49,124 nucleotides of DNA. Origin: a phage. This document shows, piece after piece, positions 25,025-39,384 of this stretch. The stretch is taken from the sequence record PZ715802.1. One strand, 5' to 3'. Position numbers and translations under genes: made by a program. The notes under the pieces are model-generated. The model worked only from the letters and a program-made list of their open reading frames with translations, was not told where the DNA came from and made no database searches. Every line of letters starts with the position of its first letter. Positions within the stretch are counted from its first letter, which is position 1.

Positions 25025-25052
25025 TTGACTACATGAAACATTCACATATAAT
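25025..25052 (+). promoter_or_regulatory. sigma70 promoter TTGACT-N16-TATAAT
   Basis: near-consensus hexamers 25025-25030 and 25047-25052, about 30 nt upstream of exonuclease ATG. Confidence 0.5.
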
Positions 25053-25080
25053 GCAGACATACCAACGAGAGGATGACTAA

Positions 25081-26136
25081 ATGAGCGATTTTAAAGTTTA
25101 CACCTTTGACCAGTTAACCAACGGTGAATATCACGATCCGAAAGGCTGGTCGGCTGAATACGTTAGCGGTTCAAGCCTAGCAGAAATCTTTGCAAGTTGT
25201 CCGGCAGCATGGAAATACAGACCACGCGAGGAAAGCAAAGCGCTTGTTTTCGGTACGCAGTCACACACAAACTTCCAGAGTAGTGAGCTATTCGCAAAAG
25301 AGTACCGCAGAGCGCCAGCGCCGGAAGATTATGAAAACCTGATTACGAGCCAGGCAGCATTGGCAGCGAAATTAAAATCTTTTGGCCTGACTGGTACAAG
25401 CGGGAAAACGTATCCAGATCTGATTAAGATGATGGTTGATTGTGGTGAGGATCTAAATGTGCAATGGCTCATTGAAATGATCGCAGAAAGCCAAGCGCGA
25501 GCGGATAACGTTGAATTGGTTCCGGCTAAAGATTACGACGCTTGCGTTTCTATGCGCCGTGTTCTTGAGGCAATACCAGAGCACAACGCTTGCATGAATA
25601 GCCCAACAGCACAACGCGAGCTATCAATTTTCGGCACTATAAAAGGCGTGAAAGTCAAAGTAAGGCTTGACCATGTTGATATTTGCAAGGATGTGCTTGC
25701 AACGGTAATTTCCGGCTATGACGGTGAAGGGAATCCGGTTTATGAAACAACGCGATTTGATGAAGCGATTGTGATCACTGATTACAAAACAACGTCAAGC
25801 GCTAACCCAACGGAGTTTTCACGGCTGGCATTTAATCATGGTTACTACTTAAAAATGGCATTGCAGCACGACCTATTCAAGAAAGCGTATCCAGAAGAAA
25901 AACGACCTGTTGTTGTTCGACTTCTGGCGCAAGAAAAGAAAGAGCCGTTTTTACCTATCGCATACCGAATGACAGACGAGCAATTGAAGATCGGACGTCT
26001 GCAATACATGAGCGTTATCAACCAGTTTGCAGAATGCCAGGCTAATGACGTTTGGCCTTCATATGCAAACGGTGAGCCGGAAATTGACCTGCAAACGCCT
26101 GATTGGGTACGCAGACAATACAAAGGTTTTTTATAA
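25081..26136 (+). CDS. PD-(D/E)XK recombination exonuclease
   Basis: ORF track; GAGAGGA RBS; ITDYKTT motif; sits directly upstream of Erf and SSB. Confidence 0.6.
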   Translation: MSDFKVYTFDQLTNGEYHDPKGWSAEYVSGSSLAEIFASCPAAWKYRPREESKALVFGTQSHTNFQSSELFAKEYRRAPAPEDYENLITSQAALAAKLKSFGLTGTSGKTYPDLIKMMVDCGEDLNVQWLIEMIAESQARADNVELVPAKDYDACVSMRRVLEAIPEHNACMNSPTAQRELSIFGTIKGVKVKVRLDHVDICKDVLATVISGYDGEGNPVYETTRFDEAIVITDYKTTSSANPTEFSRLAFNHGYYLKMALQHDLFKKAYPEEKRPVVVRLLAQEKKEPFLPIAYRMTDEQLKIGRLQYMSVINQFAECQANDVWPSYANGEPEIDLQTPDWVRRQYKGFL

Positions 26137-26137
26137 A

Positions 26138-26179
26138 TAGCACTTTTTGCTAAAACAGCCATTCGATGCGTGGTATACT
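26138..26179 (+). promoter_or_regulatory. composite box element: TAGCActtttTGCTA, 21 nt, TATACT
   Basis: palindrome 26138-26152; -10-like hexamer in loop of gcgtg/cacgc hairpin. Confidence 0.55.
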
Positions 26180-26211
26180 ACACGCATCAACCAACAAGAG
26201 AGGAAATAAAA

Positions 26212-26502
26212 ATGGAACAGCAATTCAATGAACAAGACACTCAAGACGTTCGCGATCATGTAGGCGGATTTGTAAACGCATTAGGCATTATGCAACGCCA
26301 GTTCTTACGAGTAATTGATCCAAGCGAATCACCGGAAACTCTTGAATACGTTCGCAAGGTTGCATATTCGATTGATAACGTTGTGTTAACAGTTCTTCAA
26401 ATGGAGAATAACGAAGAACACCGCAAGATGATTAATCAGGCAAGTGAAATCATGATCCAGAATTTGATTGATTATCACAACGAGAACAAAGAAAAGCATT
26501 AA
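26212..26502 (+). CDS. hypothetical protein
   Basis: internal ATG of track ORF 26170-26502 with AGAGGA RBS; track start would lie inside the box element. Confidence 0.45.
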   Translation: MEQQFNEQDTQDVRDHVGGFVNALGIMQRQFLRVIDPSESPETLEYVRKVAYSIDNVVLTVLQMENNEEHRKMINQASEIMIQNLIDYHNENKEKH

Positions 26503-26548
26503 TTAACACGGCGGCGCAAGCCGCCATTATTAAACCGGAGTCAATGAA

Positions 26549-27211
26549 ATGAAATTTTCCGATCAAAACGCAAACGTAATTAAGGCATTGTTTGAGGCGC
26601 GTCAGTTATTCACAAAAGTAAAAAAGGATAAGCAAAACACGCACCTTAAAAACAAATATGCAACTCTTGACAGCGTTCTTGATGCTATTATGCCTGGCCT
26701 TACTGATAAGGGTTTATTCCTTACTCAAGATCAGAAAGTTGGCGAAGATTTGAAATCAATGACGGTTTTAACTCGCTTCATTCACGTTGAATCAAATGAA
26801 TGGGTTGAATATAGTTTCACGTTGCCAATGCAGAAATTAGATCCACAAGGCGGCGGCTCAACAAACAGCTATGCGAGACGTTATGCTCTTTGCACGGCTC
26901 TTGGCCTTGCAACGGCTGACGATGACGCAAATCTTGCCACCAAAAACGCGCAGGATTGGAAAAAAGATCTTGATGCTTGCGATAACCTTACAGACTTACA
27001 AGAAACGTTTAAAACGGCTTACAAGCAATCTGACGCGGCTAACAGGAGAATCATTAAAGAGCATTACGACAAGCTAAAAGCAAAAATGGAAATCGGAAAG
27101 GCTCGCGGTTTTAATCCGGCAGCGCCAGCGGCTAATGTTGCGAAGAAGGAAAATGTTGAAAACGAGCCGCAACAGGAAGTAAAATCTCAATCTATCACAG
27201 ACTTTGAATAA
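26549..27211 (+). CDS. erf: Erf-family single-strand annealing protein
   Basis: ORF track; CCGGAG RBS; sequence around SYARRYALCTALGLA matches Erf family as recalled; adjacent to exonuclease and SSB. Confidence 0.7.
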   Translation: MKFSDQNANVIKALFEARQLFTKVKKDKQNTHLKNKYATLDSVLDAIMPGLTDKGLFLTQDQKVGEDLKSMTVLTRFIHVESNEWVEYSFTLPMQKLDPQGGGSTNSYARRYALCTALGLATADDDANLATKNAQDWKKDLDACDNLTDLQETFKTAYKQSDAANRRIIKEHYDKLKAKMEIGKARGFNPAAPAANVAKKENVENEPQQEVKSQSITDFE

Positions 27212-27249
27212 ATTAACGTGGGGCGGTAACGCCCCAATAAGGATTAAGA

Positions 27250-27675
27250 ATGCACGTAATCACCGGAGAAATTCGCAAAGAGCCATTTGTAAAGCAAGGC
27301 GCAAACGGCACATTATACATCGTTGAGCTTTCGGAGTCATTTAAAGATCGTGAAGGTAATCGACAATACACCAATTACAAATTCTTCTTTAATGCTAAAA
27401 GCGACGGCATGAATAATTGGTATCGTGAAGCATTTCAGCAGGGTAAAGTTATTTCTGTATCATGCGATCAGTTACGCATTGATAGCCAGGAATACAACGG
27501 GCAGATTTATAACACATTGACGGCGGCGGGCTTTCCTAATCTTTTATTCAGTCAACGCGGAGAAGGGCAAGCGCCACAACAGCAGCAACCTCGACAGCAA
27601 CAACAATCGCCACGCCAGCAAGCGCCTCAAAACAACGAGCCGCCTATGGATTTTGACGACGATATTCCATTCTGA
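27250..27675 (+). CDS. ssb: single-stranded DNA-binding protein
   Basis: ORF track; Gln/Pro-rich linker and acidic C-terminal tail DFDDDIPF. Confidence 0.8.
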   Translation: MHVITGEIRKEPFVKQGANGTLYIVELSESFKDREGNRQYTNYKFFFNAKSDGMNNWYREAFQQGKVISVSCDQLRIDSQEYNGQIYNTLTAAGFPNLLFSQRGEGQAPQQQQPRQQQQSPRQQAPQNNEPPMDFDDDIPF

Positions 27676-27677
27676 TA

Positions 27678-27707
27678 AAAGAAAAGGAGCCGAAAGGCTC
27701 CTTTTTT
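27678..27707. terminator. bidirectional intrinsic terminator between convergent genes
   Basis: palindrome aaaaggagcc-gaa-ggctcctttt with A-run and T-run on either side. Confidence 0.65.
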
Positions 27708-27708
27708 A

Positions 27709-30072
27709 TTACTTAGCAATCTGAACAAACATTGCTTGCATTTCCGCAATTGCGGCTTTCATTTCTGCGATCTCGTTTTTCAACTCTTTAATTTCCTCCT
27801 GTTGTTTCTCTATTTTTTCTTTCTGCTCTTTGAATGCGTTAACCAAAAGAGCTACAACGCCATTATAGTTAATGCCTTTGATTGCCTCGCCTTTTGGATC
27901 TAGCTGACCATCATTATTCAAAGAATGAACCGCTTCCGGCAAAACCCTTTCAACATCTTGTGCGATCAATCCAGCCTCAATACTATAAACGCTGTTTTCA
28001 TCTTCAATTAGATTGTTGCGCTTGTAGTAAGTATAACCAGTTAGATAATCAATTTTGTCGGATGCCGTTTCGATCTCTTTTAGATGTGCTTTCATCCTTA
28101 TGTCAGATGTGCTGATCCATTGGTTACAACTTGCATTTCCGGCGTGATTAAATATAAATTGCGCTCCCTTAACATAAAGATGTGTTTCAGCACCGCCACT
28201 CGACCAGTTAACGGCATCCATTCCAGTAATCCAAGAATCACCCCAATGAACAACCTTAAATACGTTAACGGCTGCGTCTTTTGCTGTAATCTCGCAAAGC
28301 ATTCCAGCACCACGATCACGCCAGGCATCAAAAGCGCCTTCCTGAATTTGACCGCCAATCATGGCATTTGCCCCACCAGACCTAATGCCAGCAACCCTAA
28401 TGCCGTTTGCATCGTCACTAATAGGCCATATACTCAATAACCCGTACATGTTAAAATCATTAGCTTGGCATGTTGCAATATTTCTACCGTTGCACATTAC
28501 TTGCAAAATGCCATCACCGCCCCACTTAAAACCTGTGTCAGTGTCACCAATTACTAACGCATTACTTCCAAGCGCATTACCAATACCCCTACCGATAACT
28601 ATTGAATTGTAATTTAGCGCGTTACCGCTTTCATCAAATTGATAATAGTTTGTATCACCTCCTTCCCTAGTGACTTGTATTGTTGATTTTGCTAATCCAC
28701 CTTGAATTTCGTTGTAAATTCTTGAGTATGAAAGCTGTACATTTTCTGGACTTTTGTTTATTAAATAAAGAATTCCAGAGTTTGCAGAGTTTTTTTCTGT
28801 TAGGCTTATCCCTCTAAAAACAGGAATGTCAGTTTCACCAATGCCAAAGTTATTCCTTGCTTGGCTTACGTTTGCTGCACCTGTGCCGCCCTGTAGAATT
28901 CCAAGAGGAATATACTGTTGCGATGCGATATTCCAGTAACCCCAACCATCGTTACCAACTGTAAGGTATTTGATCTTATCCGGCGACCGAATAAACGTTT
29001 CACCATCGCCCTGATCAAATCGGTCAATCTGGAAATTAATTCTTGCTTGCGTTACGTTTTCCGCACCAGTACCGCCAGCACCAACAGAAAGAGCGGATGT
29101 GCTGTTATCGCTATTTCTTGCAACTCGCCACTCGCCGTTGTTTGCGATCCGTAATTCATAAGTCCATGCAGGGTTACGAAATGAGTTATAATCACCTGGA
29201 TTTTGACCCTTAACTGAATTAACAGCCTCAACTTTCAGCGCCTCCCTTGCTAAATCTTTATTAGCAAGATCATTAAGATTCTGATCCTTATGCAGAAGGT
29301 TTTCAGGGTTAACTTGTTGTGCCCATTGGCGAGCTTCATCACGCGCAGTTTCAGCGCCTTGTTTAGCGTTTCCGGCTGCAACCTTTGATTGTTCAGCCAG
29401 ATCACGAGCTTCCACGGCTTCATCACGAGCGTTGAAAGCCTCCTGCTTAATGGCTTCCGTTTCTCTAACAGCAGCGTCTTTAATGCCTTGCGTTTGCGTC
29501 TTTATTGCGTCAGTGTCTGCCTTAATCTGATTGGTTTCATAAACAGCAGCATCCTTAATCCGTTGAGTTTCTGCAATCGCAGTATCTTTAATTTGCGTAG
29601 TCTCAGAAACAGCGGCATCCTTAATAGCTTGCGTGTCGTTTTTTAATTGCTCAGTTGCGGCGCGATCTGCATCCGTTTTTTGTGCGGAAGACTCAGCGCG
29701 AGCAACAAGATCCTGTAATGTTTTAAGGTCAAAGTTTTTGAAGAATTCAATTGCTTCCTCAATAACCGTTTCTTTACTTTGGTAATATCTCAGCGTTTCC
29801 GCAACATCTTGCGCCATTCCATCTACCGTTAAAGAGTCATTCAACAGGATCACATAATTTCCGTTTTCTACTGGCTCGCCGTCAGTCTGGATCGCTTTCA
29901 TTTCCGTGTCGCTTACAATATCGCTAATCACAGCCAATTTAAGAGGCGATGTGAGAAATACGATTGTTGCGCCAGTGCGGATAAGAGAAAGCGGCTCACG
30001 CCATTTTGTGCCAGTACCAGTGATAACGCCTTGTGCGTCCATTGCAGCCGTACCAGTGCGATATAAAGCCAT
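27709..30072 (-). CDS. side tail fibre with C-terminal intramolecular chaperone domain
   Basis: 787 aa; internal tandem IKDAAV.ET repeats; C-terminus DYLTGYTYY...IEAGLIAQDVERVLPEAV typical of self-cleaving chaperone domains. Confidence 0.8.
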   Translation of the reverse strand: MALYRTGTAAMDAQGVITGTGTKWREPLSLIRTGATIVFLTSPLKLAVISDIVSDTEMKAIQTDGEPVENGNYVILLNDSLTVDGMAQDVAETLRYYQSKETVIEEAIEFFKNFDLKTLQDLVARAESSAQKTDADRAATEQLKNDTQAIKDAAVSETTQIKDTAIAETQRIKDAAVYETNQIKADTDAIKTQTQGIKDAAVRETEAIKQEAFNARDEAVEARDLAEQSKVAAGNAKQGAETARDEARQWAQQVNPENLLHKDQNLNDLANKDLAREALKVEAVNSVKGQNPGDYNSFRNPAWTYELRIANNGEWRVARNSDNSTSALSVGAGGTGAENVTQARINFQIDRFDQGDGETFIRSPDKIKYLTVGNDGWGYWNIASQQYIPLGILQGGTGAANVSQARNNFGIGETDIPVFRGISLTEKNSANSGILYLINKSPENVQLSYSRIYNEIQGGLAKSTIQVTREGGDTNYYQFDESGNALNYNSIVIGRGIGNALGSNALVIGDTDTGFKWGGDGILQVMCNGRNIATCQANDFNMYGLLSIWPISDDANGIRVAGIRSGGANAMIGGQIQEGAFDAWRDRGAGMLCEITAKDAAVNVFKVVHWGDSWITGMDAVNWSSGGAETHLYVKGAQFIFNHAGNASCNQWISTSDIRMKAHLKEIETASDKIDYLTGYTYYKRNNLIEDENSVYSIEAGLIAQDVERVLPEAVHSLNNDGQLDPKGEAIKGINYNGVVALLVNAFKEQKEKIEKQQEEIKELKNEIAEMKAAIAEMQAMFVQIAK

Positions 30073-30109
30073 AATTTCACCTCATTTACTTGATTAAAAT
30101 AGTGTAGTG

Positions 30110-30138
30110 ATTATGCGATATTGCTATGTTACATGCAA
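30110..30138 (-). promoter_or_regulatory. sigma70-like promoter TTGCAT-N17-CATAAT for tail fibre gene
   Basis: read on minus strand; -35 at 30133-30138, -10 at 30110-30115. Confidence 0.4.
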
Positions 30139-30140
30139 TA

Positions 30141-30164
30141 AAAAACCCGCCGTAGCGGGTTTCG
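30141..30164 (-). terminator. intrinsic terminator after primase gene
   Basis: minus-strand stem acccgc/gcgggt then T-run. Confidence 0.5.
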
Positions 30165-30226
30165 TCAACAACAACGAGAAGTCAATGAAACAGATTCATC
30201 GAAAAGTGTTAGTAGCAGGATGAATA

Positions 30227-31153
30227 TTATAATAAGTCACTTGCCTTGTAAAGCCTCCGCTCTATTCCATTTTTGAATTTACCGTTAATTGGTAGCATTA
30301 CGTCTAATTCTCGATCATCAGCAGCAATCAAAGTGTCGCGATCATTAGCATGGCACACAACGCGCATTTTGCGATCTCCTTTGTATCTGTATGCAACAAT
30401 TTCAAGATTTGAAGGTGAAAAACACGCCCATACTTCTTGCCCCGTCGCCATGTGTATATGTTGCGCATCAATCCAATCAACGCAAAGGTAAATTGTTTTG
30501 TCAGTCTTGCCAGTTACTGCAACGCTTCCGCGCGTGTAATCTTTCGCGTAAAAACTGCTTTTACCTTCCTCATTGACGAAAAGAATATTGCACATGTCAT
30601 CATCCAATTCATCACTATGCACCAGGTGGCAAGGAATAGCGTGTATATGCTCGCAATATCCATTTTCATGAGTTTTTACGCCCACTTGATACGATTCGCC
30701 GTCTAATGGATAAAACGCCTCAAAAACGCTTAGATTTGTTATTTCCATGCGTTCAGTTTTATCCATAACCTCAACACATTTTTCATGAGGCGCTTGAGAT
30801 CCGAAGTTGTAACCGGAATCACGCTTTGCCGCTTTGTTAGCCTTGTTGACAACCTCAACCGGAACCAGGTTTAACCATTCGCCTAGCGTGTCGATTGCTT
30901 CACTGTAATTTTCACCACGTATGCGCATGAATAATCCGATCCCTGAATCATTCCCGCATTGGTTGCAAATGTTTCCGCCGTCGCCTTTCTCGTTGATTTT
31001 GTCAGTCCAACGAAAGCGATCTTTACCGCCGCAATAAGGGCAAGGCTGATGCTTTCCGTTAAAGGTTAATTGAGGAATATCACAAAGTTTCATCAATGCC
31101 GCTTGCCACATGCCGCGCATCTTTGGGATCACTTCTTCTTTTTGATAATGCAT
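30227..31153 (-). CDS. DNA primase (zinc-ribbon type)
   Basis: ORF track; GGAGG RBS; CPYCGGKDRFRW...CNQCG zinc-ribbon motif. Confidence 0.55.
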   Translation of the reverse strand: MHYQKEEVIPKMRGMWQAALMKLCDIPQLTFNGKHQPCPYCGGKDRFRWTDKINEKGDGGNICNQCGNDSGIGLFMRIRGENYSEAIDTLGEWLNLVPVEVVNKANKAAKRDSGYNFGSQAPHEKCVEVMDKTERMEITNLSVFEAFYPLDGESYQVGVKTHENGYCEHIHAIPCHLVHSDELDDDMCNILFVNEEGKSSFYAKDYTRGSVAVTGKTDKTIYLCVDWIDAQHIHMATGQEVWACFSPSNLEIVAYRYKGDRKMRVVCHANDRDTLIAADDRELDVMLPINGKFKNGIERRLYKASDLL

Positions 31154-31165
31154 TTCTCAACCTCC

Positions 31166-31203
31166 AAATAAAAAACCTGGCACGATGATAAACCATGCCA
31201 GGC
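31166..31203 (-). terminator. hairpin terminator between HTH gene and primase
   Basis: minus-strand stem cctggca/tgccagg followed by TTTTTT. Confidence 0.4.
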
Positions 31204-31211
31204 CGGAATTT

Positions 31212-31820
31212 TTAGCAATCAGTGCTATCGACGGAAATCACAACGCGTTTCTTCTGATTGGCTTCCTTTGCTTTGCGCCGTTCTTCTTTCGCCTTGTCGC
31301 GTTCAGCTTTGCGCCGCGCTTTCTCCTTCTCGCGTTCTTCTGGAGTCATAGACCGTAACGGATCGTAAGGCCGGACAAATCCCCTTGCTTCCGCTTCCTC
31401 TTTGGTTACAAATCGCATTAGCTTTCTGTTGCTGCAACGATTCTCTAATGGCTTGCCGTTATTATCAAATTTGATATCTGGACGGCAATATGAAGCGCGG
31501 AAGCCGTTAAAACCTTTGCGTCGGTAATCTTTCTGGATCAGTTCAGCGCCTTTAGTTGAAATCATGCCGCGCTCTTTCCATCCCCATACTGTTTTAAGGT
31601 TAACGCCAATTTCACGCGCCAGGGCAGCGCAACCGCCGTAAGCGTTGACAACTTCATCAAGCCGCGCTTTTAATCCGGCTCTTACTTCTTCCTTTAATAC
31701 AAGATAACCGCTAACAGGTGCGCGACGTTTACGATCTTTACCACGTCTTACGCCGTTGTTACCATTGATTGTGCGTTTGTCGATTTCGCCAGTTGATGCA
31801 GCAATTTTGATTTCGCTCAT
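31212..31820 (-). CDS. HTH DNA-binding protein (Cro/YdaS-like) with basic C-terminal tail
   Basis: ORF track; helix-turn-helix-like CAALAREIGVNLKTVWGWK; Lys/Arg/Glu-rich C-terminus; weak RBS. Confidence 0.55.
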   Translation of the reverse strand: MSEIKIAASTGEIDKRTINGNNGVRRGKDRKRRAPVSGYLVLKEEVRAGLKARLDEVVNAYGGCAALAREIGVNLKTVWGWKERGMISTKGAELIQKDYRRKGFNGFRASYCRPDIKFDNNGKPLENRCSNRKLMRFVTKEEAEARGFVRPYDPLRSMTPEEREKEKARRKAERDKAKEERRKAKEANQKKRVVISVDSTDC

Positions 31821-31831
31821 ATTTTTATATA

Positions 31832-31873
31832 TAGCACTTTTTGCTAAAAAACTTGATTAAGTTTGTGTATGAT
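31832..31873 (+). promoter_or_regulatory. composite box element: TAGCActtttTGCTA, 21 nt, TATGAT
   Basis: palindrome 31832-31846 upstream of helicase ATG 31909. Confidence 0.55.
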
Positions 31874-31897
31874 ATGCCGCAAATGGCATTTAGTCAA
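31869..31897 (-). promoter_or_regulatory. sigma70-like promoter TTGACT-N17-TATCAT for HTH gene, face-to-face with box element
   Basis: read on minus strand; its -10 (31869-31874) overlaps the + strand -10 (31868-31873). Confidence 0.45.
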
Positions 31898-31908
31898 AAG
31901 GATAAAAA

Positions 31909-33882
31909 ATGATTCCTAACATTGAAAAGCAGATTGCAGATCTGGGAGAGGAAAGGATTAAGGCAATCCAGAAGCGTTTCACGGTTGGTGAGATTGTCCC
32001 GTATGAATACCAATGCGTTGCTTACGCTGAAATTGCAAAGCGCTTGAGTAAGTATGTTGATCCGTTTTTCGTTAAAGCGGCGGTGTCGGCAGGTAAAACA
32101 ATCATCTTTGCTATGGTTGCGGCTCAGTGCAGGAAAATGGGATTGAAAGCGTTATTTCTGGCGCGTCAATCTGAAATTGTGGATCAGGATTCAAAAGAGA
32201 TTAGCGCCTTTGGTGTTCCGAATTCCGTTTATTGCGCTGGCCTGAATACCAAAAGCGCTTATTTCCCGATTGTTGTAGGATCGGAAGGTACTGTAATTGG
32301 CGGATTGAATAAGGCGTTAGGTGATTACGTCCCACAGGTTTTAGGTATAGATGAATGTCATCAAGTCAACTGGAATGATATTGTTGAAGCCGAGGAAAAC
32401 GGCGAAAGCATAGAGCAAATGATGACACCGAAAGGTGAACCAGTTGAAGGGAATCCGTTGCTGATTGGTTCAGGCCGCGCACAATACACCATTATCATTG
32501 CAGAAATGCGCCGCCGTTGCCTTGAGACTTACGGTCATCAGTTGCGCATATTTGGAATGACAGGATCGGAATATCGCGGAATTGAGCCGATACTTGTCGA
32601 AGATAAAAGAATTCCTGGGTTTTGGCGTGAGCAGATCACAAACATTGATACTGATTACCTGGTAAAATTTGGTTCAGTTGTTCCCACTTATTTTGGCAAT
32701 GTTGGTGATTTGGGTTACGACTTATCAGAATTTACGCCAGTACATGAATTTGGCGTTGCTGATTATGACCAGAAGCAATTAAAGGCAATGAGTGACAAGA
32801 TTCACAAATCAGGAACCATGACGCAGAAAATAATGCAGATGGTTCATGAGGTGATGAAAAACCGCTTGTGCGCTCTTGTTACTTGCGCTGACGAAAGGCA
32901 CTGTAAAGAGGCGGCGGCGGCGCTTCCTCCTGGCACGAAATATCACATTATCACCGGAAAAACTGGAGAGAAACAGAGGCGCTTATGGCTTGAGGATGCT
33001 TATGAAGGCAGGGTGAAATATATTTTTCAGGTTCAGGCGCTAACAACTGGCGTGAACGTGCCGCCGTGGGATACTTCTGTTATTTTGCGTAAGATCGGAA
33101 GTCTAACGCTATTAACTCAGCTTTTGGGGCGTGGTATGCGTCAATTAAAAACATACCATAAAGAAGTATTGGGGATGCACAAAACGGATCACCTTGTTTT
33201 GGATTTTTCAGGCACGATGTTTGAAATGGGTAATTTGTATTTCGATCCGATGTTAGAGCAAGCGCAATTCCAGTTACGTAAATCACAGGACAAAGATCCG
33301 AAATATTGCCCGATTTGCGGTACAGAAAACTCATTCTATGCTCGCCGTTGCATTAATGAGGATGAAAACGGAAATCGTTGTGAACATTTCTGGACGTTCC
33401 AGGAATGTGAGGATCAGATTGATGACCGCACAAAGAAAGTTATTGTAAAAGGTTGCGGCGCAAAAAATGACGTTGCGGCGCGTGTATGCCGTTGCTGTAA
33501 TGTTCAGTTACGCGATCCAAATGATAACTTATCCGGCAAGATGTACCGTAAAAACGATTGGTGCGACGTGTTAGATTTTAATGTGACGCTGACAAAAAAC
33601 CAGGCTGGCGTAATATTCTGCTACACGTTACGTGATAGTGGCGGCGTAGAATTCAGGGCATACGAAAAATATTTCCCTGAATCAGAACACAAGATATGTA
33701 AAACTCTTTGGACAAAGGCGGTTAGAACACACGTTATAGATCGCCAGGCCGCAAACTTTATGATCACTTGCAGAAATGCAATTAAGATCATGAGTTATGC
33801 TGGGCAAATATTGCCACCAAAACGTGTTACCCATCGCAAGAACACAAAGAAAGAAGATTTGATCGCACAGAAGGAGTTTTAA
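31909..33882 (+). CDS. superfamily 2 DNA helicase with C-terminal Cys-rich region
   Basis: ORF track; Walker A SAGKT; DECH box; CPICG...C...C and CRCC clusters. Confidence 0.8.
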   Translation: MIPNIEKQIADLGEERIKAIQKRFTVGEIVPYEYQCVAYAEIAKRLSKYVDPFFVKAAVSAGKTIIFAMVAAQCRKMGLKALFLARQSEIVDQDSKEISAFGVPNSVYCAGLNTKSAYFPIVVGSEGTVIGGLNKALGDYVPQVLGIDECHQVNWNDIVEAEENGESIEQMMTPKGEPVEGNPLLIGSGRAQYTIIIAEMRRRCLETYGHQLRIFGMTGSEYRGIEPILVEDKRIPGFWREQITNIDTDYLVKFGSVVPTYFGNVGDLGYDLSEFTPVHEFGVADYDQKQLKAMSDKIHKSGTMTQKIMQMVHEVMKNRLCALVTCADERHCKEAAAALPPGTKYHIITGKTGEKQRRLWLEDAYEGRVKYIFQVQALTTGVNVPPWDTSVILRKIGSLTLLTQLLGRGMRQLKTYHKEVLGMHKTDHLVLDFSGTMFEMGNLYFDPMLEQAQFQLRKSQDKDPKYCPICGTENSFYARRCINEDENGNRCEHFWTFQECEDQIDDRTKKVIVKGCGAKNDVAARVCRCCNVQLRDPNDNLSGKMYRKNDWCDVLDFNVTLTKNQAGVIFCYTLRDSGGVEFRAYEKYFPESEHKICKTLWTKAVRTHVIDRQAANFMITCRNAIKIMSYAGQILPPKRVTHRKNTKKEDLIAQKEF

Positions 33883-33884
33883 AG

Positions 33885-34292
33885 ATGGTTACTGACAAAG
33901 GCGATTATCTGGAGTATTACAACAAATCAGATCCAGACGATAGGAAGGAGGAAGCGCACCAGGTTGATTCTTATTCATGGCTAACATATGAGTTTCCAAT
34001 GTGGCTTGTTTGGCACACTAAAAACGAGGGGAAGAAAACCATAGGCACAGCCGTAAAGGATCAGCAAGCGGGTGTGAAGAAGGGAGTTAGCGACATTCTA
34101 ATCCTGACTGGTTTTATTGGCTGCAAGTATTCATTTATAGCCATTGAGCTTAAACGCGCCAACAAGAAAGGCACGAAGGTAAGCGACGAACAAAAGGAAT
34201 TCTTGCGACGTGTCAGAGAGTGCGGAGGGTTTGCCGCCGTATGCTATGGAGTAGAGCAAGTAAAATTGGCTATCGCAGACGCTACAAAATAG
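33885..34292 (+). CDS. VRR-NUC domain nuclease
   Basis: ORF track; AAGGAG RBS; D..ELK and EQKEFLRRVRECGG motifs; stop codon is TAG of box. Confidence 0.55.
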   Translation: MVTDKGDYLEYYNKSDPDDRKEEAHQVDSYSWLTYEFPMWLVWHTKNEGKKTIGTAVKDQQAGVKKGVSDILILTGFIGCKYSFIAIELKRANKKGTKVSDEQKEFLRRVRECGGFAAVCYGVEQVKLAIADATK

Positions 34293-34332
34293 CACTTTTT
34301 GTTAAAACAGGCGCAACGGAATGCGCCATAAT
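34290..34332 (+). promoter_or_regulatory. composite box element: TAGCActtttTGTTA, 22 nt, CATAAT
   Basis: palindrome 34290-34304; hairpin ggcgca/tgcgcc in spacer. Confidence 0.6.
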
Positions 34333-34363
34333 GCACCCATCAGAACGAAACGGAGAAATCAAA

Positions 34364-34690
34364 ATGAAAAAGCTTTTAGCAGCAATCTTATTATCAGCAA
34401 GCTTTTCAGTAAATGCAGACTCTTGCAACAATATCATTCTTTATGCAATGAATAACGCAAAAGATAATTGGGGTTCAGAAGCAAGATTAGTTTCTCAACC
34501 TATGCATGTATCAATTTACAAGGATACATGCAAGACAGCAATAACAGCAAAAGGTGTTATAAGCAAAGATGACTTTTACGAAGGAATAAAAAACGGATCA
34601 AGCGCGGTGCTTGAAAAGCATGGTTATATTGATGCGGCAGATGTAAATTCTTTGGTAGCAAAAATTTCATACGATTTCGCAACAGAATAA
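34364..34690 (+). CDS. secreted small protein with signal peptide
   Basis: internal ATG of track ORF 34220-34690 with GGAGAAA RBS; N-terminus MKKLLAAILLSASFSVNA then DSC. Confidence 0.5.
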   Translation: MKKLLAAILLSASFSVNADSCNNIILYAMNNAKDNWGSEARLVSQPMHVSIYKDTCKTAITAKGVISKDDFYEGIKNGSSAVLEKHGYIDAADVNSLVAKISYDFATE

Positions 34691-34704
34691 GAGGCAAGAT
34701 AAAA

Positions 34705-35445
34705 ATGGCTAAAGATATTCAGGACGTAGCAACTATTGACACTTTCGAGCCGGAAATGGATTTTCATGAATTGCAATACGGAAAATATTCAGATATTGCA
34801 TTGCGCTCAGGTGGTCATTATCAGCCAGTTAGAGAAAACCCATTATTTAAGGTTAGCGGCAACCGTTATGCAGGAAGTAAAACGCCGGACGTTGTTCGCG
34901 ATTTGTGGGAAACGCCAGATGAAATTGTTGATTATCTTGCTGAACGTTACGGCAAATATGATCTTGATGCAGCCGCAACGGAAGATAATAAAAAATGCGA
35001 TAAGTTTTACAGCAAAGAAACAAACTGCTTAAAGCGCTGGTGGGGTAGCAATAAGCACGTTTGGTTAAATCCACCATACAGCAATCCAGATCCATTTATC
35101 AAAAAAGCAATTGAGCAGATGGAACACGGAAACCAGATTGATATTTTACTTCCGGCTGATAATTCAACTGCATGGTTTAGTGACGCACAAAAACACGCGG
35201 CAGAAATTATCTGGATTACTGGTGAAACCTGGAAGGATGAAGAAGGTCGCGAATATTCCAGAACTGGTCGAGTAGCGTTTATTTCTGGCATGACAGGTGA
35301 ACAAGTACAGGGCAACAATAAAGGCAGCGTGATTTTTATCATGCGCCAACTTAAAGAAGGTGAGCAACAGCAAACTCACTATGTGAAGATTAGCGACATT
35401 TGCCCTTCCGTAAAAAATAAACGAGCCAAAGCGCGGAGCATTTAA
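34705..35445 (+). CDS. dam: DNA N6-adenine methyltransferase (phage Dam type)
   Basis: ORF track; AGAGG RBS; catalytic NPPY motif in WLNPPYSNP. Confidence 0.8.
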   Translation: MAKDIQDVATIDTFEPEMDFHELQYGKYSDIALRSGGHYQPVRENPLFKVSGNRYAGSKTPDVVRDLWETPDEIVDYLAERYGKYDLDAAATEDNKKCDKFYSKETNCLKRWWGSNKHVWLNPPYSNPDPFIKKAIEQMEHGNQIDILLPADNSTAWFSDAQKHAAEIIWITGETWKDEEGREYSRTGRVAFISGMTGEQVQGNNKGSVIFIMRQLKEGEQQQTHYVKISDICPSVKNKRAKARSI

Positions 35446-35446
35446 A

Positions 35447-35677
35447 ATGAGCATTCGATTAGCCGATCACATGAAATGGGATTTATTTGTTGGTATGACA
35501 ATTCGCTTACTTGATAAGCATGGTTATAACGCTGATAAAATGGAGTTGATAAACTGCCTGGATATGACATTTGACGAAATAAAAGTTGCGCCTTTGTACA
35601 TGTGGGAAAGAAAAATTGAGCACGACCTGATACAATACAAACGCAGAGAGGGCGCACGATTTTTCAATGTGAAATAG
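35447..35677 (+). CDS. hypothetical protein
   Basis: ORF track; stop codon is TAG of box. Confidence 0.45.
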   Translation: MSIRLADHMKWDLFVGMTIRLLDKHGYNADKMELINCLDMTFDEIKVAPLYMWERKIEHDLIQYKRREGARFFNVK

Positions 35678-35717
35678 CACTTTTTGTTAAAACCCGCTTC
35701 GGCGGGTTTTGTATTAT
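35675..35717 (+). promoter_or_regulatory. composite box element: TAGCActtttTGTTA, 22 nt, TATTAT
   Basis: palindrome 35675-35689; spacer hairpin cccgc/gcggg followed by TTTT also looks terminator-like. Confidence 0.55.
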
Positions 35718-35747
35718 GTGCTTAACGGAGAACAAGAGGATTCAAAA

Positions 35748-35912
35748 ATGAAAATTGTAAACGTTGAATACTTAAAAGATGCGCAATGGCTGGCTAAAGA
35801 ATCATTGTTTATGCTTGATCGCAAACATCCAAAAGTAATTGCACAAATACTTTGGAATGACGCAATGGAGTTACTTAAAAAGGCTTACGGTTATGAAAGT
35901 GACAAAAGGTAA
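35748..35912 (+). CDS. hypothetical small protein
   Basis: internal ATG of track ORF 35709-35912 downstream of box and AGAGGA-like RBS. Confidence 0.4.
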   Translation: MKIVNVEYLKDAQWLAKESLFMLDRKHPKVIAQILWNDAMELLKKAYGYESDKR

Positions 35913-36135
35913 AAAGGAAACTTGGGAGTTAGCGAAAAAAGGCGGTCTTGATGAAGGGATCGCCAAAATAGCGCAATATTTCGATATCAAAGACGTGTGC
36001 GTTATTGTCGGTGATGAAATGGCATATGTGGATGAAAAGCCGCACAAGGTTCATCGCGTTCCGGCAATTCCGACAACAATCGACTATAAAGAAGTGATCA
36101 ACAAAACAAAAGAGCAAAGGAAATATTACAAGTGA
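35893..36135 (+). CDS. hypothetical protein (start uncertain)
   Basis: track ORF 35839-36135; chosen ATG overlaps previous gene by 20 nt; weak RBS. Confidence 0.3.
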   Translation: MKVTKGKKETWELAKKGGLDEGIAKIAQYFDIKDVCVIVGDEMAYVDEKPHKVHRVPAIPTTIDYKEVINKTKEQRKYYK

Positions 36136-36228
36136 AAACAATTAAATTCATGTTTGCTGTTATCTTGCCGCCAATGCTGGCATGGTTTATGATGTACGCC
36201 GTTGTTATGAAATAAGAGGATTTGTGAA

Positions 36229-37344
36229 ATGAGTGCAGCAAAAATTACTGACGAACAACTTATAGCAGAAAGGGCGGCAGGTTTAAAACTGCGTGAGATT
36301 GCGGAAAAATACGGAATGAGCTTGCGCCAGGTTGAGCACCGTCACAGCAAATTGGCTAAGCGTGGCGAAATCTCAACTATCGGATCACCTGGATTTGCTG
36401 TAATTGGTGAATCACAGCTTAAACGTGCAAATGGTGAGGTTGTAATGACCTGGACTAAAACGCACAAAGACAAAGCGCAATTAGATGCAATAATGCAAGC
36501 GGCTATGGCTGCATTTTCGGAAGAATTGCCACGAGTAGAACCGCAACCGGAAAAGATTGTTGACTATTCGAAAACTCTTGCGCTATATCCGATCTTTGAT
36601 ATTCACATTGGCGCAATGGCGCACAAGCATGAAAGCGGTGAGAATTACGACACGGCGACGGCAGAAAAGATCATGAATGAATTCTTTGATTATGCCGTCG
36701 ATAAAGCACCGAATAGCGAAAAGGCTGTATTGCTGATTGGTGGTGATATGATTCACAGTGACGGTCTGGAGGCTGTAACACCTGCAAGCGGTCACGTTTT
36801 GGATCAGGATTCGCGATATGCGAAACTTGTTTATGTTGCCATTCGAGCCACGCGCAGAGCAGTAAGCCGAATGCTGGAAAAACATAAAGAGGTTGAATTG
36901 CAGATCATTGAAGGTAATCACGACCAATCAGGAATGATCTGGCTACGTGCTGCAATGGCGGCGGCGTATGAGAATGAGCCACGCGTAAAGGTTGATGTTT
37001 CTCCGCGCGTCGTGCATCACACTCAATATGGTAAAACTTTCCTAGCTTATCATCATGGTCACACTGTACGCAAGCCAGAAACGCTTTTAATGATGTGTGC
37101 AGCGGATTGGCGGGAAGATTTCGGAAACTCCAATTCAATGTATGCGCATGTAGGGCATTGGCATCACCAGACTGTTACAGAAACGAGCCTTGGCATTGTT
37201 GAGGTGCATAACACTATGGCAGCAAAAGACGCTTACGCCGCGCGTGGTGGCTGGCGTTCACGTCGCAGGGCGGCGGTAATTATTTATGATAAGGAATATG
37301 GCGAAATAGGGCGGTTTATGTTTTACCCCGAAATGATTGCTTAA
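36229..37344 (+). CDS. metallophosphoesterase (calcineurin-like) with N-terminal HTH
   Basis: ORF track; AGAGGA RBS; N-terminal LKLREIAEKYGMSLRQV; phosphoesterase motifs DIHIG, GGDMIHSD, GNHD, HHGH. Confidence 0.6.
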   Translation: MSAAKITDEQLIAERAAGLKLREIAEKYGMSLRQVEHRHSKLAKRGEISTIGSPGFAVIGESQLKRANGEVVMTWTKTHKDKAQLDAIMQAAMAAFSEELPRVEPQPEKIVDYSKTLALYPIFDIHIGAMAHKHESGENYDTATAEKIMNEFFDYAVDKAPNSEKAVLLIGGDMIHSDGLEAVTPASGHVLDQDSRYAKLVYVAIRATRRAVSRMLEKHKEVELQIIEGNHDQSGMIWLRAAMAAAYENEPRVKVDVSPRVVHHTQYGKTFLAYHHGHTVRKPETLLMMCAADWREDFGNSNSMYAHVGHWHHQTVTETSLGIVEVHNTMAAKDAYAARGGWRSRRRAAVIIYDKEYGEIGRFMFYPEMIA

Positions 37345-37357
37345 TTAAATTATCAAG

Positions 37358-37392
37358 AAAAAGGCTGGCTAAGTGCTGGCCTTTTTTTGTTT
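37358..37392 (+). terminator. hairpin terminator candidate
   Basis: aaaaaggc...gccttttttt inverted repeat with 13-nt loop. Confidence 0.4.
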
Positions 37393-37455
37393 TTGTGGTT
37401 AACATATTCACACTAATTTTGGCATTGACATTTTAATTTAATTGAGGATCAGATT

Positions 37456-37680
37456 ATGAGAGACTTTCTTTTAATGGCGCAAAACTCTTTCGGAGGTGCA
37501 ACGGTAGTTGGATCTTTTACTGGTGAGTTTTTGCTTGCACTTGCTACGTTTATTTTGTTCGCTATTTTCGGCTGTTGGGGCGCATGGCTGAAATGGCGTG
37601 ATAGTAAAGCGATCCGAGAGGCTTTAGATTCAGGGGATTTAAAAACGGCGCTTAATCTACGGCAGAAAGAGAGGGTATAA
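37456..37680 (+). CDS. holin (by position and hydrophobicity)
   Basis: ORF track; GAGGA RBS; TM segment [21 protein letters not shown]; immediately upstream of endolysin. Confidence 0.55.
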
Positions 37681-38171
37681 TGACAATCAAGAAAGGTATA
37701 GCCGCCACCGTCACAGGGGCGGCTTTAATGTTGGCATCGCCTTTGATTGAAGAAATTGAAGGCGTAAAGTATAAGCCTTACAAGGATATTGCGGGGATCT
37801 GGACTGTATGCCACGGCATTACAGGAAAGGATGTGATTCTTGGAAAGGAATATACCAGGCGAGAATGTGACGCGCTATTAGCAAAGCATATGAAAGTAGC
37901 GGCTGACGCTGTTGATAAGGCGGTTAAGGTTGAAATTCCTTTATCAATGCGAGCGGCTCTATACTCATTCACTTTTAATGCTGGTACTGGCGCGTTTCGT
38001 AAGTCAACCATGCTGAAAAAGATCAACAATGGTGATCTATGGGGCGGTTGTGGTGAGCTATGGAACTGGACATATTACCGTAACCCTAAAACTGGTAAAA
38101 AGGAAAAATCAAGAGGATTGAAGAACCGCCGCGCCGTCGAATATAAATATTGCGTAAGGGATCTTAAATGA
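37680..38171 (+). CDS. SAR endolysin (T4-type lysozyme)
   Basis: start overlaps holin stop; N-terminal weakly hydrophobic [18 protein letters not shown]; E-x8-D-x5-T catalytic spacing. Confidence 0.8.
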
Positions 38172-38557: not shown

Positions 38558-38573
38558 GCCGCCTTTTCTTTTA
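38547..38573. terminator. hairpin terminator at junction of convergent blocks
   Basis: stem aaggcggc/gccgcctt followed by TTCTTTT. Confidence 0.5.
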
Positions 38574-38792: not shown

Positions 38793-38828
38793 TTTGTTTT
38801 CCTTTTGTTGCTACGTTTCGTTAAAGCA

Positions 38829-39382: not shown

Positions 39383-39384
39383 GA

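What the first reader, a model, noticed from the sequence alone, without database searches (positions are those of the whole stretch)
31832..31897. Face-to-face overlapping promoters between the HTH gene and the helicase gene
On the + strand the box element 31832-31873 precedes the helicase gene. On the - strand a good sigma70 promoter (TTGACT-N17-TATCAT, 31869-31897) precedes the HTH protein gene 31212-31820, and the two -10 hexamers overlap. The HTH transcript also carries the box palindrome in its leader. This arrangement suggests mutual interference or autoregulation, and makes the HTH protein a candidate factor acting on the box family.
Basis: inference. Interest (0 to 1): 0.55.

Follow-up and report, generated by a model that had tools for sequence, protein, structure and literature searches.

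The report
Two-way phage promoter with host-type marbox
Between a regulator gene and the helicase gene of this T1-like phage sits one shared two-way promoter, and its repeated "box" looks exactly like the binding site of the bacterial stress activators MarA/SoxS/Rob, so the phage may run most of its genes on a host protein rather than on its own regulator.

Summary
The window is a Tlsvirus (T1-like, Drexlerviridae). At 31831-31897 a leftward sigma70 promoter (TTGACT-N17-TATCAT) for the regulator gp57 and a rightward box promoter for the helicase share one -10 heptamer, TATGATA. This is the known "bidirectional promoter" geometry, with -10 positions 2 and 6 base-pairing. The transcripts diverge, so "face-to-face" is a misnomer. 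Both elements are already listed for phage TLS as P57 and DR11, with the repeat's function left open. The node is conserved in 80 of 80 related loci.

- **The box is a marbox.** It matches the MarA/SoxS/Rob site gcannwwntgnnaaa at 10 of 10 positions, in forward orientation.
- **The geometry is class II.** It sits N18/19 from an extended -10, as in the class II micF promoter.
- **gp57 does not fit the box.** It is a single-HTH Cro-like protein, and its recognition helix varies between genera while the box does not.
- **No phage MarA.** The phage encodes no MarA-like protein.

Most likely a host MarA/SoxS/Rob-type activator turns RNA polymerase rightward and thereby shuts off gp57, as SoxS does at E. 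coli PacrA/acrR. Nothing here is experimentally tested, and a Keio screen with a near-identical phage found no rob, marA or soxS requirement.

The parts
31212..31820 (-). Gene for gp57, a 202-aa Cro-like single-HTH protein annotated as 'transcriptional regulator' (TLS gp57)
   Evidence: ORF. 96-99% identical to the TLS/LL5 regulator. PHROG 2856, E=1e-75. Weak Pfam YdaS/P22_Cro HTH match. AF2 model with pLDDT 83.5; best folds are Xfaso1 Cro, N15 Cro and C.Esp1396I.
31821..31862 (-). Predicted 42-nt leader of the gp57 mRNA. It carries the box complement, and its Shine-Dalgarno is lost in this phage.
   Evidence: The start site is inferred as 7 nt after the -10 (an A at 31862 on the - strand). 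RNA fold is not significant, z=-0.76. Relatives read AGGUG where the window reads AUAUA.
31831..31850 (+). Box, equal to TLS direct repeat DR11: ATAGCACTTTTTGCTAAAAA. It is a forward marbox-type site at -50 to -31 in the register of the box family (this copy sits 1 nt closer to its -10), and at +13 to +32 of the leftward promoter.
   Evidence: 18 copies against 0.09 expected. 10/10 match to gcannwwntgnnaaa. Shares 13 of 14 bases (CACnTTTTGCTAAA) with the E. coli mar marbox. Listed as DR11 in the TLS paper.
31851..31867 (+). Spacer of the helicase promoter. The full spacer is 18 nt, counted from the end of TAAAA at 31849; it is 19 nt in most box promoters. It has no -35 and contains the local inverted repeat AACTT-GATT-AAGTT (31851-31864).
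   Evidence: Alignment of the 18 box promoters. Position matrix of 43 promoters.
31868..31874 (.). Shared -10 heptamer TATGATA: + strand TATGAT (31868-31873) for the helicase, - strand TATCAT (31874-31869) for gp57
   Evidence: A TAnnnTA heptamer sits at this place in 80 of 80 related loci: TATTATA in 68, TATGATA in 11, TAGTATA in 1. The geometry is the one described for bidirectional promoters.
31892..31897 (-). -35 hexamer TTGACT of the leftward promoter (TLS P57). It lies inside the helicase 5' UTR, next to the helicase Shine-Dalgarno.
   Evidence: Listed as P57, one of only three sigma70-type intergenic promoters in TLS. A TTGnnn/TTAnnn hexamer 16-17 nt from the heptamer recurs in most related loci.
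31874..31889 (.). Inverted repeat ATGCC-N6-GGCAT in the P57 spacer, at the 5' end of the helicase mRNA. Probably not functional.
   Evidence: Read from the sequence. The stem is broken in close relatives that carry an identical gp57 HTH (L015, L016).
31909..33882 (+). Helicase gene helA (657 aa), first gene of the rightward unit
   Evidence: ORF. Pfam ResIII and Helicase_C. TLS helA.
31210..31228 (-). Second box (TLS DR10), overlapping the gp57 stop codon. It is the box of the primase promoter; N19 further on lies TATCAT (31190-31185).
31174..31204 (-). Terminator hairpin T57, which ends the gp57 transcript. Its loop holds the -10 of the primase box promoter.
   Evidence: 13-bp stem followed by a T-run. 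Listed as T57, -17.1 kcal/mol, in the TLS paper. Fold z=-4.4.

Best explanation
The 31831-31897 stretch is one bidirectional promoter node conserved throughout the T1-like family Drexlerviridae.

- Leftward arm: a self-sufficient sigma70 promoter (-35 TTGACT, 17 bp, -10 TATCAT) makes a short monocistronic transcript for the Cro-like protein gp57. That transcript ends at its own terminator.
- Rightward arm: the helicase promoter has no -35. It consists of a -10 plus the box, which is a forward marbox overlapping the -35 position, as in class II MarA/SoxS/Rob(/RamA)-dependent promoters such as micF.

The two -10 hexamers share 5 bp, so RNA polymerase can sit in only one orientation. When a marbox-binding activator recruits polymerase rightward, helicase transcription rises and gp57 transcription falls through polymerase competition. 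The most likely activator is a host one, and abundant, stable Rob is the prime candidate. This is the same logic as SoxS at E. coli PacrA/acrR.

Shown here: the sequence anatomy, its conservation, the fit to the marbox and to micF geometry, and the fold of gp57.
Inferred: the start sites, the identity of the activator, and the interference itself.
For: Anatomy:
- establish the elements at their coordinates.
- The shared -10 has positions 2 and 6 paired across strands, which is the most common bidirectional arrangement, with start sites 18 bp apart.

Conservation:
- 80 of 80 IMG/VR loci and 8 genera plus T1 keep box, N18-19 (N20 in one locus), TAnnnTA, N16-17 (N18 in one locus) and a minus-strand hexamer that is TTGnnn or TTAnnn in most loci (weaker, 3/6 to TTGACA, in a few). 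The spacers between these elements diverge freely.

The box is a marbox:
- 17 of 18 copies match gcannwwntgnnaaa at 10/10 positions.
- 19 exact matches in the window against 1.84 +/- 1.33 expected.
- It contains the A site GCAC and the B site YAAA.
- It shares 13 of 14 bases with the mar marbox.

The geometry is class II:
- micF reads GTCAAAA-N19-TAGAAT and the phage reads GYTAAAA-N19(18)-hexamer. Relative to the -10 this places both sites at the same position; micF is centred at -41.5 from its mapped start, the phage box at -40.5 from a predicted one.
- Every copy that has a -10 hexamer downstream is in forward orientation relative to its gene.
- The -35 window reads AAAACn, at most 2-3 of 6 matches, as reported for class II promoters.
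- G at -14 is present in 39 of 43 promoters, an extended -10.

Other support:
- No AraC/MarA-like protein is encoded in the window (best tblastn E=0.17).
- SoxS at PacrA/acrR activates one arm and silences the regulator arm by polymerase competition alone.
- TLS has only three sigma70-type intergenic promoters, and the function of its direct repeats is stated to be unknown.
Against: - There are no transcription start data, and no binding or reporter data, for any T1-like phage in the searchable literature.
- A Keio single-deletion screen with LL5 recovered only receptor/LPS genes plus secB and ppiB, not rob, marA or soxS. LL5's node is 96.5% identical to the window's. Redundancy among the three activators, or basal activity of extended -10 promoters, could hide an effect.
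- This copy has N18 rather than N19.
- Positions 3 and 15 of the box are invariant although the marbox consensus leaves position 3 free and allows either pyrimidine at position 15. This gives a TAGCA-N5-TGYTA pseudo-dyad that a dimeric phage protein could also read.
- From general knowledge, Rob is largely sequestered and inactive without inducers.
Confidence: 0.6

Rival explanations
1. gp57, made first from its activator-independent promoter, binds the box as a dimer (pseudo-dyad TAGCA-N5-TGYTA). It activates all box promoters from about -42 and, by binding the box in its own leader or by redirecting polymerase, shuts itself off.
For: - gp57 is the only annotated regulator, and it has one of only three canonical sigma70 promoters plus its own terminator. 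That fits an immediate-early activator.
- The half-sites lie one helical turn apart and the site centre is near -42.
- Cro/C-protein-like folds bind such dyads.
- gp57 and the boxes co-occur in 831 phage records.
- The Keio screen found no host activator requirement.
Against: - Box conservation is asymmetric. G4 is invariant, but its dyad partner is C in 23 and T in 20 of 43 promoters. The invariant 3' AAAA has no 5' TTTT mirror.
- The fit to the marbox and to micF spacing would then be a coincidence of about 4e-6 per register.
- The recognition helix differs (NLKTVWGW in Tlsvirus, SNQTVQGW in Tunavirus) while the box is identical.
- The window phage has lost the gp57 Shine-Dalgarno.
Confidence: 0.15
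2. A dual-use site. Host MarA/SoxS/Rob activates the box promoters early. Later gp57 binds the superimposed pseudo-dyad and competes the activator off, acting as a Cro-like global shut-off of early transcription. This is close to the 'stoperator' idea of the TLS authors.
For: - Positions 3 (A) and 15 (T) are invariant beyond what the marbox consensus requires, and they are what complete the dyad.
- The gp57 fold resembles Cro and R-M controller proteins.
- The TLS authors raised a repressor-site reading.
Against: - The same asymmetry and helix-variation arguments apply as for the model above.
- The two extra invariant positions could simply optimise activator binding; micF also has A at position 3.
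- No conserved operator was found.
Confidence: 0.1
3. No protein factor. The box is an intrinsic upstream element (UP-like, or a bend) that helps RNA polymerase at extended -10 promoters. The overlap with P57 is genome compaction without regulatory consequence.
For: - An extended -10 is conserved (G at -14 in 39 of 43 promoters).
- The TLS authors suggested UP-like enhancers.
- No host activator gene turned up in the Keio screen.
Against: - The box spans -50 to -31, not the UP position.
- Its invariant core is G/C-specific (GCAC, TG), not an A/T tract.
- A 20-bp sequence held invariant across genera while neighbouring bases drift points to base-specific protein reading.
Confidence: 0.12

Closest known systems
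E. coli PacrA/acrR bidirectional promoter controlled by SoxS/MarA (Warman et al., NAR 2026, PMC12825309)
   Same: - Divergent genes share a -10.
- One arm encodes an HTH regulator and the other an operon that is switched on.
- The Mar/Sox site lies on the regulator side.
- Activating one arm silences the regulator arm by polymerase competition, without roadblocking.
   Different: - The acrA site is upstream of a recognisable -35 and acts by pre-recruitment; the phage box overlaps the -35 position (class II).
- AcrR is a TetR-type auto-repressor with a known operator, whereas gp57 is Cro-like with an unknown target.
- The phage case is untested.
Class II MarA/SoxS/Rob/RamA promoters, with micF as the paradigm
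   Same: - Forward marbox with a GCAC A site and a YAAA B site.
- The same distance from box to -10: 19 nt after the A-run.
- No -35, and a good -10.
   Different: - The phage carries about 17 near-identical, near-consensus copies, whereas host sites are degenerate.
- Most copies carry a hairpin between the box and the start site.
- Binding by the host proteins has not been shown.
Symmetric -10 bidirectional promoters (Warman et al., bioRxiv 10.1101/2020.01.31.928960)
   Same: -10 hexamers lie on opposite strands and are offset so that positions 2 and 6 pair. The predicted starts are about 18 bp apart.
   Different: Most described cases are host or horizontally acquired DNA with low basal activity. 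Here the arrangement is conserved across a whole phage family.
TLS direct repeats DR1-18 and promoter P57 (PMC11447400)
   Same: These are the same elements: DR11 is this box, P57 is the leftward promoter, and T57 is the terminator.
   Different: That paper treats the repeats as being of unknown function (stoperator, enhancer site or UP-like). It does not note the fixed N19 spacing to a -10, the marbox identity, or the shared -10 with P57.
Phage Mu Mor/C and lambda cI at PRM: dimeric phage activators centred near -42 to -43 (from general knowledge)
   Same: A phage activator bound next to a promoter that has a -10 but lacks a -35.
   Different: Those sites are dyads read by phage dimers. The box here is asymmetric and host-like.

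Membership tests
Bidirectional sigma70 promoter (shared symmetric -10) | -10 hexamers on opposite strands overlap so that positions 2 and 6 base-pair | tested here: met
   + TATGAT at 31868-31873 and - TATCAT at 31874-31869. Definition taken.
Bidirectional sigma70 promoter (shared symmetric -10) | Divergent transcription start sites 7-25 bp apart (mode 18), both active | not testable with these tools
   Predicted starts are 31862 and 31880/31881. No 5'-end data for T1-like phages were found.
Class II MarA/SoxS/Rob (marbox) promoter | Sequence matches the marbox consensus (A site GCAC, B site YAAA, gcannwwntgnnaaa) | tested here: met
   10/10 defined positions in this copy and in 17 of 18 copies. 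19 exact matches against 1.84 expected.
Class II MarA/SoxS/Rob (marbox) promoter | Forward orientation, centred near -41, overlapping the -35 position | tested here: met
   Box at -50 to -31 relative to the predicted start in the family register. Box-to-hexamer distance equals that of micF: N19, and N18 in this copy.
Class II MarA/SoxS/Rob (marbox) promoter | No recognisable -35; canonical -10 | tested here: met
   The -35 window reads AAAACn. The -10 is TAtaaT with G at -14 in 39 of 43 promoters.
Class II MarA/SoxS/Rob (marbox) promoter | Bound and activated by MarA, SoxS, Rob or RamA | not testable with these tools
   Needs EMSA, in vitro transcription or mutant hosts. The Keio single-deletion screen with LL5 was negative.
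AraC/XylS (MarA-like) activator encoded by the phage | Protein with two HTH motifs homologous to MarA/SoxS/Rob | tested here: not met
gp57 has one HTH and no AraC match by Pfam, by PDB profile or by Foldseek.
Cro/cI-type HTH regulator (gp57) | Single all-alpha HTH domain related to Cro proteins | tested here: met
   Profile hit to Xfaso1 Cro at E=5e-4. Foldseek TM-score 0.70 on the target. Homologues carry Pfam P22_Cro and YdaS domains.
Cro/cI-type HTH regulator (gp57) | Dimer binding a palindromic operator at its own promoter | tested here: inconclusive
   The only local inverted repeat in the P57 spacer is not conserved among close relatives with an identical HTH. The box pseudo-dyad remains possible.
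UP element | A/T-rich tract at about -40 to -60 read by the alpha C-terminal domain | tested here: not met
   The box lies at -50 to -31 and has invariant G/C-specific positions.
L5-type stoperator | Asymmetric repressor sites within transcribed regions, not tied to a promoter | tested here: not met
   17 of 18 boxes sit at a fixed N18/19 from a -10 and about 70-76 nt from a start codon. They are oriented with transcription, as stoperators are.
sigma54 promoter (TGGCAC-N5-TTGCW) | GG and GC dinucleotides 11 nt apart | tested here: not met
   The box reads TAGCAC-N3-TTGC: AG in place of GG, and 9 nt in place of 11. The consensus is from general knowledge.

The most novel reading that the evidence does not exclude
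A whole family of virulent phages (Drexlerviridae, including classical T1) has wired almost its entire transcription programme to the host Mar/Sox/Rob stress regulon. It does so through some 12-20 (17 in this window) near-consensus class II marboxes per genome.

The regulator/helicase node would then be an activator-sensing toggle. With free activator, polymerase faces the replication genes. As replicating phage DNA titrates the activator, polymerase flips to the Cro-like gp57. For TLS-type phages the same regulon also raises the receptor TolC.
Probability: 0.45. Interest if true: 0.8.

Novelty: new member of a known kind. Interest (0 to 1): 0.6.

Why it matters
How T1-like phages transcribe their genomes is an open question. 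They have no polymerase or sigma factor of their own, and the 2024 TLS re-annotation found only three sigma70-type intergenic promoters and left the repeats unexplained.

Reading the repeats as class II marbox promoters gives a concrete hypothesis that can be tested in a week with existing reagents: purified MarA, SoxS or Rob, the standard mar sox rob triple deletion strain, and reporter fusions.

If it holds, three things follow:
- Host stress state (bile salts, oxidants, salicylate, antibiotics) would tune the productivity of a very common group of coliphages and Klebsiella phages now being used for therapy.
- The regulator/helicase node would be a natural, family-wide example of the polymerase-competition switch recently shown at acrA/acrR.
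- The box-terminator-(-10) cassettes would be compact, insulated and inducible promoter parts.

No paper in the searchable library links the marbox to T1-like phages.

Tried and rejected
- **sigma54 reading of TAGCAC-N3-TTGC.** Rejected on spacing and on AG in place of GG.
- **UP element and stoperator.** Rejected on position, base composition and the fixed spacing to a -10.
- **A phage-encoded MarA-like protein.** None found by tblastn. gp57 is not AraC-like by Pfam, PDB profile, or AF2 plus Foldseek.
- **RNA hairpin of the box in the gp57 leader as a regulatory structure.** The fold is not significant, z=-0.76.
- **The inverted repeat ATGCC-N6-GGCAT (31874-31889) as a gp57 operator or a 5' stabiliser.** It is broken in close relatives with an identical HTH.
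- **Transcriptome or start-site data for T1-like phages.** None found. One search was badly framed and wasted.
- **Original marbox papers.** Zhang 2008 and Duval 2013 are not held. The 20-nt Martin consensus AYnGCACnnWnnRYYAAAYn and the '18-19 bp' rule are therefore cited from memory only. The tested claims rest on the consensus printed and on the micF and mar sequences themselves.
- **Boxes outside Drexlerviridae.** The IMG/VR scan returned essentially only ~50-kb T1-like contigs plus single chance hits. It could not separate the host-factor and phage-factor models.
- **Table S3 of the MarA paper.** It holds no site sequences, so no position matrix of host sites was built.

Full report
**What the window is.** The region 30200-34300 is 97-99% identical to Tlsvirus phages: Citrobacter phage ElisaCorrea, phage TLS and others. 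These belong to Drexlerviridae, the T1-like siphoviruses. The window is 49,124 nt, close to the ~49.5-49.9 kb genomes of these relatives. The finding lies between a 202-aa 'transcriptional regulator' (TLS gp57; 31212-31820, minus strand) and the helicase helA (31909-33882, plus strand).

**Checking the observation.**
- The string 31832-31873 is found once.
- Its core ATAGCACTTTTTGYTAAAA has 18 copies on both strands at up to 3 mismatches, against 0.09 expected.
- The minus-strand promoter TTGACT (31897-31892), N17, TATCAT (31874-31869) scores 10/12.
- The plus-strand -10 TATGAT (31868-31873) and the minus-strand -10 overlap by five bases.
- The minus-strand leader, predicted from 31862 to 31821, runs through the box.

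A 10/12 match is not rare in itself. Five occur in 22-42 kb, a stretch that is actually depleted of promoter-like sites (27 found against 42.6 +/- 6.0 in shuffles). What matters is the position and the conservation described below.

The term 'face-to-face' is not right. The predicted starts (31862 leftward, 31880/31881 rightward) are 18-19 bp apart and point outward, so the RNAs do not overlap.

**What is already published.** The 2024 re-annotation of TLS lists the leftward promoter as P57, one of only three sigma70-type intergenic promoters found in that genome. It lists this box as direct repeat DR11, one of 18 intergenic repeats with consensus aaATAGCACnnnTTGnTAAAA, and it lists the terminator after gp57 as T57. 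The authors say the repeats lie about 76 nt upstream of start codons and in the direction of transcription. They leave the function open: stoperators, enhancer-binding sites or UP-like elements. They say similar repeats exist in T1, Rtp and Rogue1. They do not mention a -10 at fixed distance, the overlap of P57 with a box promoter, or any similarity to a host site.

**The boxes are promoters.** I aligned the 18 copies by the box. In 17 of them a -10 hexamer (TATAGT, TATAAT, CATAAT, TATCAT and the like) follows the final TAAAA after exactly 19 nt. The gap is 18 nt in two copies, including this one. A Shine-Dalgarno and a start codon follow about 30-35 nt further on.

A matrix of 43 such promoters from the window, T1 and Klebsiella phage KpV522 shows three things:
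- A at the second and T at the sixth hexamer position in 40 of 43.
- G at -14 in 39 of 43, an extended -10.
- AAAACn where a -35 would be.

One caveat: several box positions in that matrix were fixed by the search pattern. The unforced positions 1, 2, 18 and 19 are nevertheless 84-98% conserved.

**The box is a marbox.** The Grainger laboratory defines the MarA/SoxS/Rob site as 5'-gcannwwntgnnaaa-3'.
- 17 of the 18 copies match all ten defined positions and the remaining one matches nine.
- The pattern occurs 19 times in the window against 1.84 +/- 1.33 expected.
- The box contains both recognition elements named for SoxS and MarA: GCAC and (C/T)AAA, seven bases apart.
- Against real E. coli sites, it shares 13 of 14 bases (CACnTTTTGCTAAA) with the mar marbox that was co-crystallised with MarA.
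- It shares 14 of 20 bases with the micF marbox.

The geometry also matches. At micF, the class II paradigm solved by cryo-EM with SoxS and RamA and centred at about -41/-41.5, the sequence reads GTCAAAA-N19-TAGAAT. The phage promoters read GYTAAAA-N19-hexamer.

Class II sites are defined as forward-oriented, clustered near -41, overlapping the -35, and lacking a recognisable -35. All of these hold here. For one fixed register and orientation, a ten-position match has a chance of about 4e-6.

No paper in the searchable library links marboxes to T1-like phages.

**What gp57 is.**
- Homologues occur in 831 phage records, essentially all Drexlerviridae.
- Pfam gives a weak YdaS/P22_Cro HTH match, and PHROGs calls the family a transcriptional regulator.
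- An AlphaFold model built from 37 sequences has mean pLDDT 83.5, and above 90 for residues 40-140. It shows one helix-turn-helix domain.
- A profile search of the PDB and a Foldseek search both return Cro proteins (Xfaso1, P22, N15) and restriction-modification controller proteins. Neither returns AraC-family proteins.
- tblastn with MarA, SoxS and the Rob N-domain finds nothing in the window, best E 0.17.

So the phage encodes no MarA look-alike.

1. Box conservation is asymmetric. G4 is invariant, but its dyad partner is C in 23 and T in 20 of 43 promoters. The invariant 3' AAAA has no mirror on the 5' side.
2. The presumed recognition helix differs between genera (NLKTVWGW in Tlsvirus, SNQTVQGW in Tunavirus, SIQVVQQW in Webervirus) while the box is the same.
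3. The window differs from ElisaCorrea, LL5 and TLS across the 141-nt intergenic stretch at just three clustered bases. These convert the gp57 Shine-Dalgarno from AGGUG to AUAUA. The variant has no exact match in IMG/VR.

**Conservation of the node.**
- In eight genera the regulator-helicase intergenic region keeps the same order: start codon, Shine-Dalgarno, box, N18/19, a TAnnnTA heptamer, N16/17, and a -35-like hexamer on the opposite strand. HCF1 carries a duplication. T1 has the same arrangement at 36446.
- In 80 IMG/VR loci carrying a gp57 relative (53 distinct sequences), all 80 have the box and the heptamer: TATTATA in 68, TATGATA in 11 and TAGTATA in 1.
- TATTATA gives TATTAT rightward and the consensus TATAAT leftward.
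- The spacers between these elements differ freely between genera, so the elements themselves are under selection.

**How it most likely works.** The shared heptamer puts the node in the class of bidirectional promoters described by Warman and colleagues. In that class positions 2 and 6 of opposed -10 hexamers pair and the starts lie 18 bp apart.

Their 2026 study shows that basal activity is usually too low for interference, but that strong activation of one direction represses the other. At PacrA/acrR, SoxS switches on acrA and completely silences the divergent regulator gene acrR. It does so through polymerase competition and not by roadblock.

The phage node has the same parts: a regulator gene on one arm, an operon on the other, and a Mar/Sox-type site on the regulator side. 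Here that site lies at +13 to +32 of the leftward transcript.

I therefore propose the following. Polymerase alone uses the complete leftward promoter and makes the short gp57 message, which stops at T57. A marbox-binding activator recruits polymerase to the -35-less rightward promoter, raising helicase expression and lowering gp57.

The activator is most likely a host protein. From general knowledge, MarA and SoxS are unstable while Rob is abundant and stable. That makes Rob the natural candidate in a cell whose own gene expression is being shut down.

All of this is inference from sequence and from published analogues.

**Evidence that cuts the other way.**
- A Keio screen with LL5 recovered only tolC, LPS-core genes, secB and ppiB. 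LL5 is a Tlsvirus, and its node is identical to the window's except at the three Shine-Dalgarno bases, one base in the P57 spacer and one in the gp57 coding flank. Redundancy among three activators, basal activity of extended -10 promoters, and the admitted noise of that screen could each explain the negative result. It still lowers confidence in a strict host requirement.
- gp57 having one of the few activator-independent promoters fits an early-activator role.
- Positions 3 and 15 of the box are invariant although the marbox consensus leaves position 3 free and allows C or T at position 15. They are what complete a TAGCA-N5-TGYTA pseudo-dyad. gp57 could therefore bind the same site, as activator or as a late competitor of the host protein.

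**Side observations on the box promoters.**
- The 35 nt from the box to about +4 fold far better than shuffled controls: mean z = -3.0 over 42 promoters, with 79% below -1.5.
- The hairpins come in two forms. In one, the -10 sits in the hairpin loop. In the other, a GC hairpin is followed by the -10 acting as the U-tract.
- Several of these hairpins are the annotated terminators of TLS (T57, T62) and T1.
- They look like terminator-promoter fusions that insulate successive small transcription units.
- The helicase promoter is one of the few without such a hairpin (z=-0.45). This is plausibly because its -10 region must serve both directions.

**Verdict.** Its two elements are already catalogued for TLS, and the shared -10 arrangement belongs to a known class. 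The assignment of the HTH protein as the box factor is not supported.

The new and testable point is that the repeat family of T1-like phages is a set of class II marbox promoters. This places the node next to acrA/acrR mechanistically, and it suggests that a classical phage family depends on, or listens to, the host Mar/Sox/Rob regulon.

Noticed in passing
window 31826-31829: Three clustered substitutions are unique to this phage: relatives read CATATTTTCACCTATAGCAC and the window reads CATATTTTTATATATAGCAC. They destroy the Shine-Dalgarno of the gp57 regulator gene. These three, plus one base in the P57 spacer (LL5) and one or two bases in the gp57 coding flank (LL5, TLS), are the only differences between the four phages over 141 nt (ElisaCorrea differs only at the three). 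There is no exact match in IMG/VR.
   Followed up: partly
window, all box promoters (e.g. 1103-1137, 26156-26190, 46841-46875); L010 and L011: Strong covarying hairpins lie between the box and about +4 (mean z=-3.0 over 42 promoters). Either the -10 sits in the loop, or a GC stem is followed by the -10 acting as U-tract. Several coincide with annotated terminators. They look like terminator-promoter fusions.
   Followed up: partly
window 31174-31228 (-): A box overlaps the gp57 stop codon. The gp57 terminator hairpin carries the -10 of the primase box promoter in its loop, so gp57 is a self-contained unit of promoter, gene and terminator.
   Followed up: yes
window 10938-10956 (-): An orphan box lies antisense within the late structural region, with no usable -10 at N18/19. 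It is conserved at the equivalent place in TLS (DR7), T1 (about 15084) and KpV522 (about 13944).
   Followed up: no
window, leaders of box transcripts (e.g. 46870-46885, 44640-44625): A recurrent A/C-rich leader motif (ATCGAAACGAAAC / CCAAACGAAAG) lies between the predicted start site and the Shine-Dalgarno in many box-driven transcripts. It is also present in T1 and KpV522.
   Followed up: no
window 22000-41999: sigma70-type promoter-like sites are fewer than in shuffled sequence (27 against 42.6 +/- 6.0). The only other high-scoring site that corresponds to a promoter catalogued for TLS is 25025-25052 (TTGACT-16-TATAAT, 11/12), which by sequence is TLS P51.
   Followed up: no
window 20822-20840 (+): A degenerate box (TAGCACAAAAGGTTAAAAG, TLS DR8) has no -10 at the family spacing.
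   Followed up: no
public records hit: Records named Campylobacter phage (20 records) and Streptococcus phage MBBL140 carry near-identical Tlsvirus/T1-like sequence. Their host labels look doubtful.
   Followed up: no
window 29447-29637: Direct repeats spaced 33 nt apart (one interval of 75 nt) lie inside the tail-fibre gene (family D6). This is probably a coiled-coil or collagen-like protein repeat.
   Followed up: no
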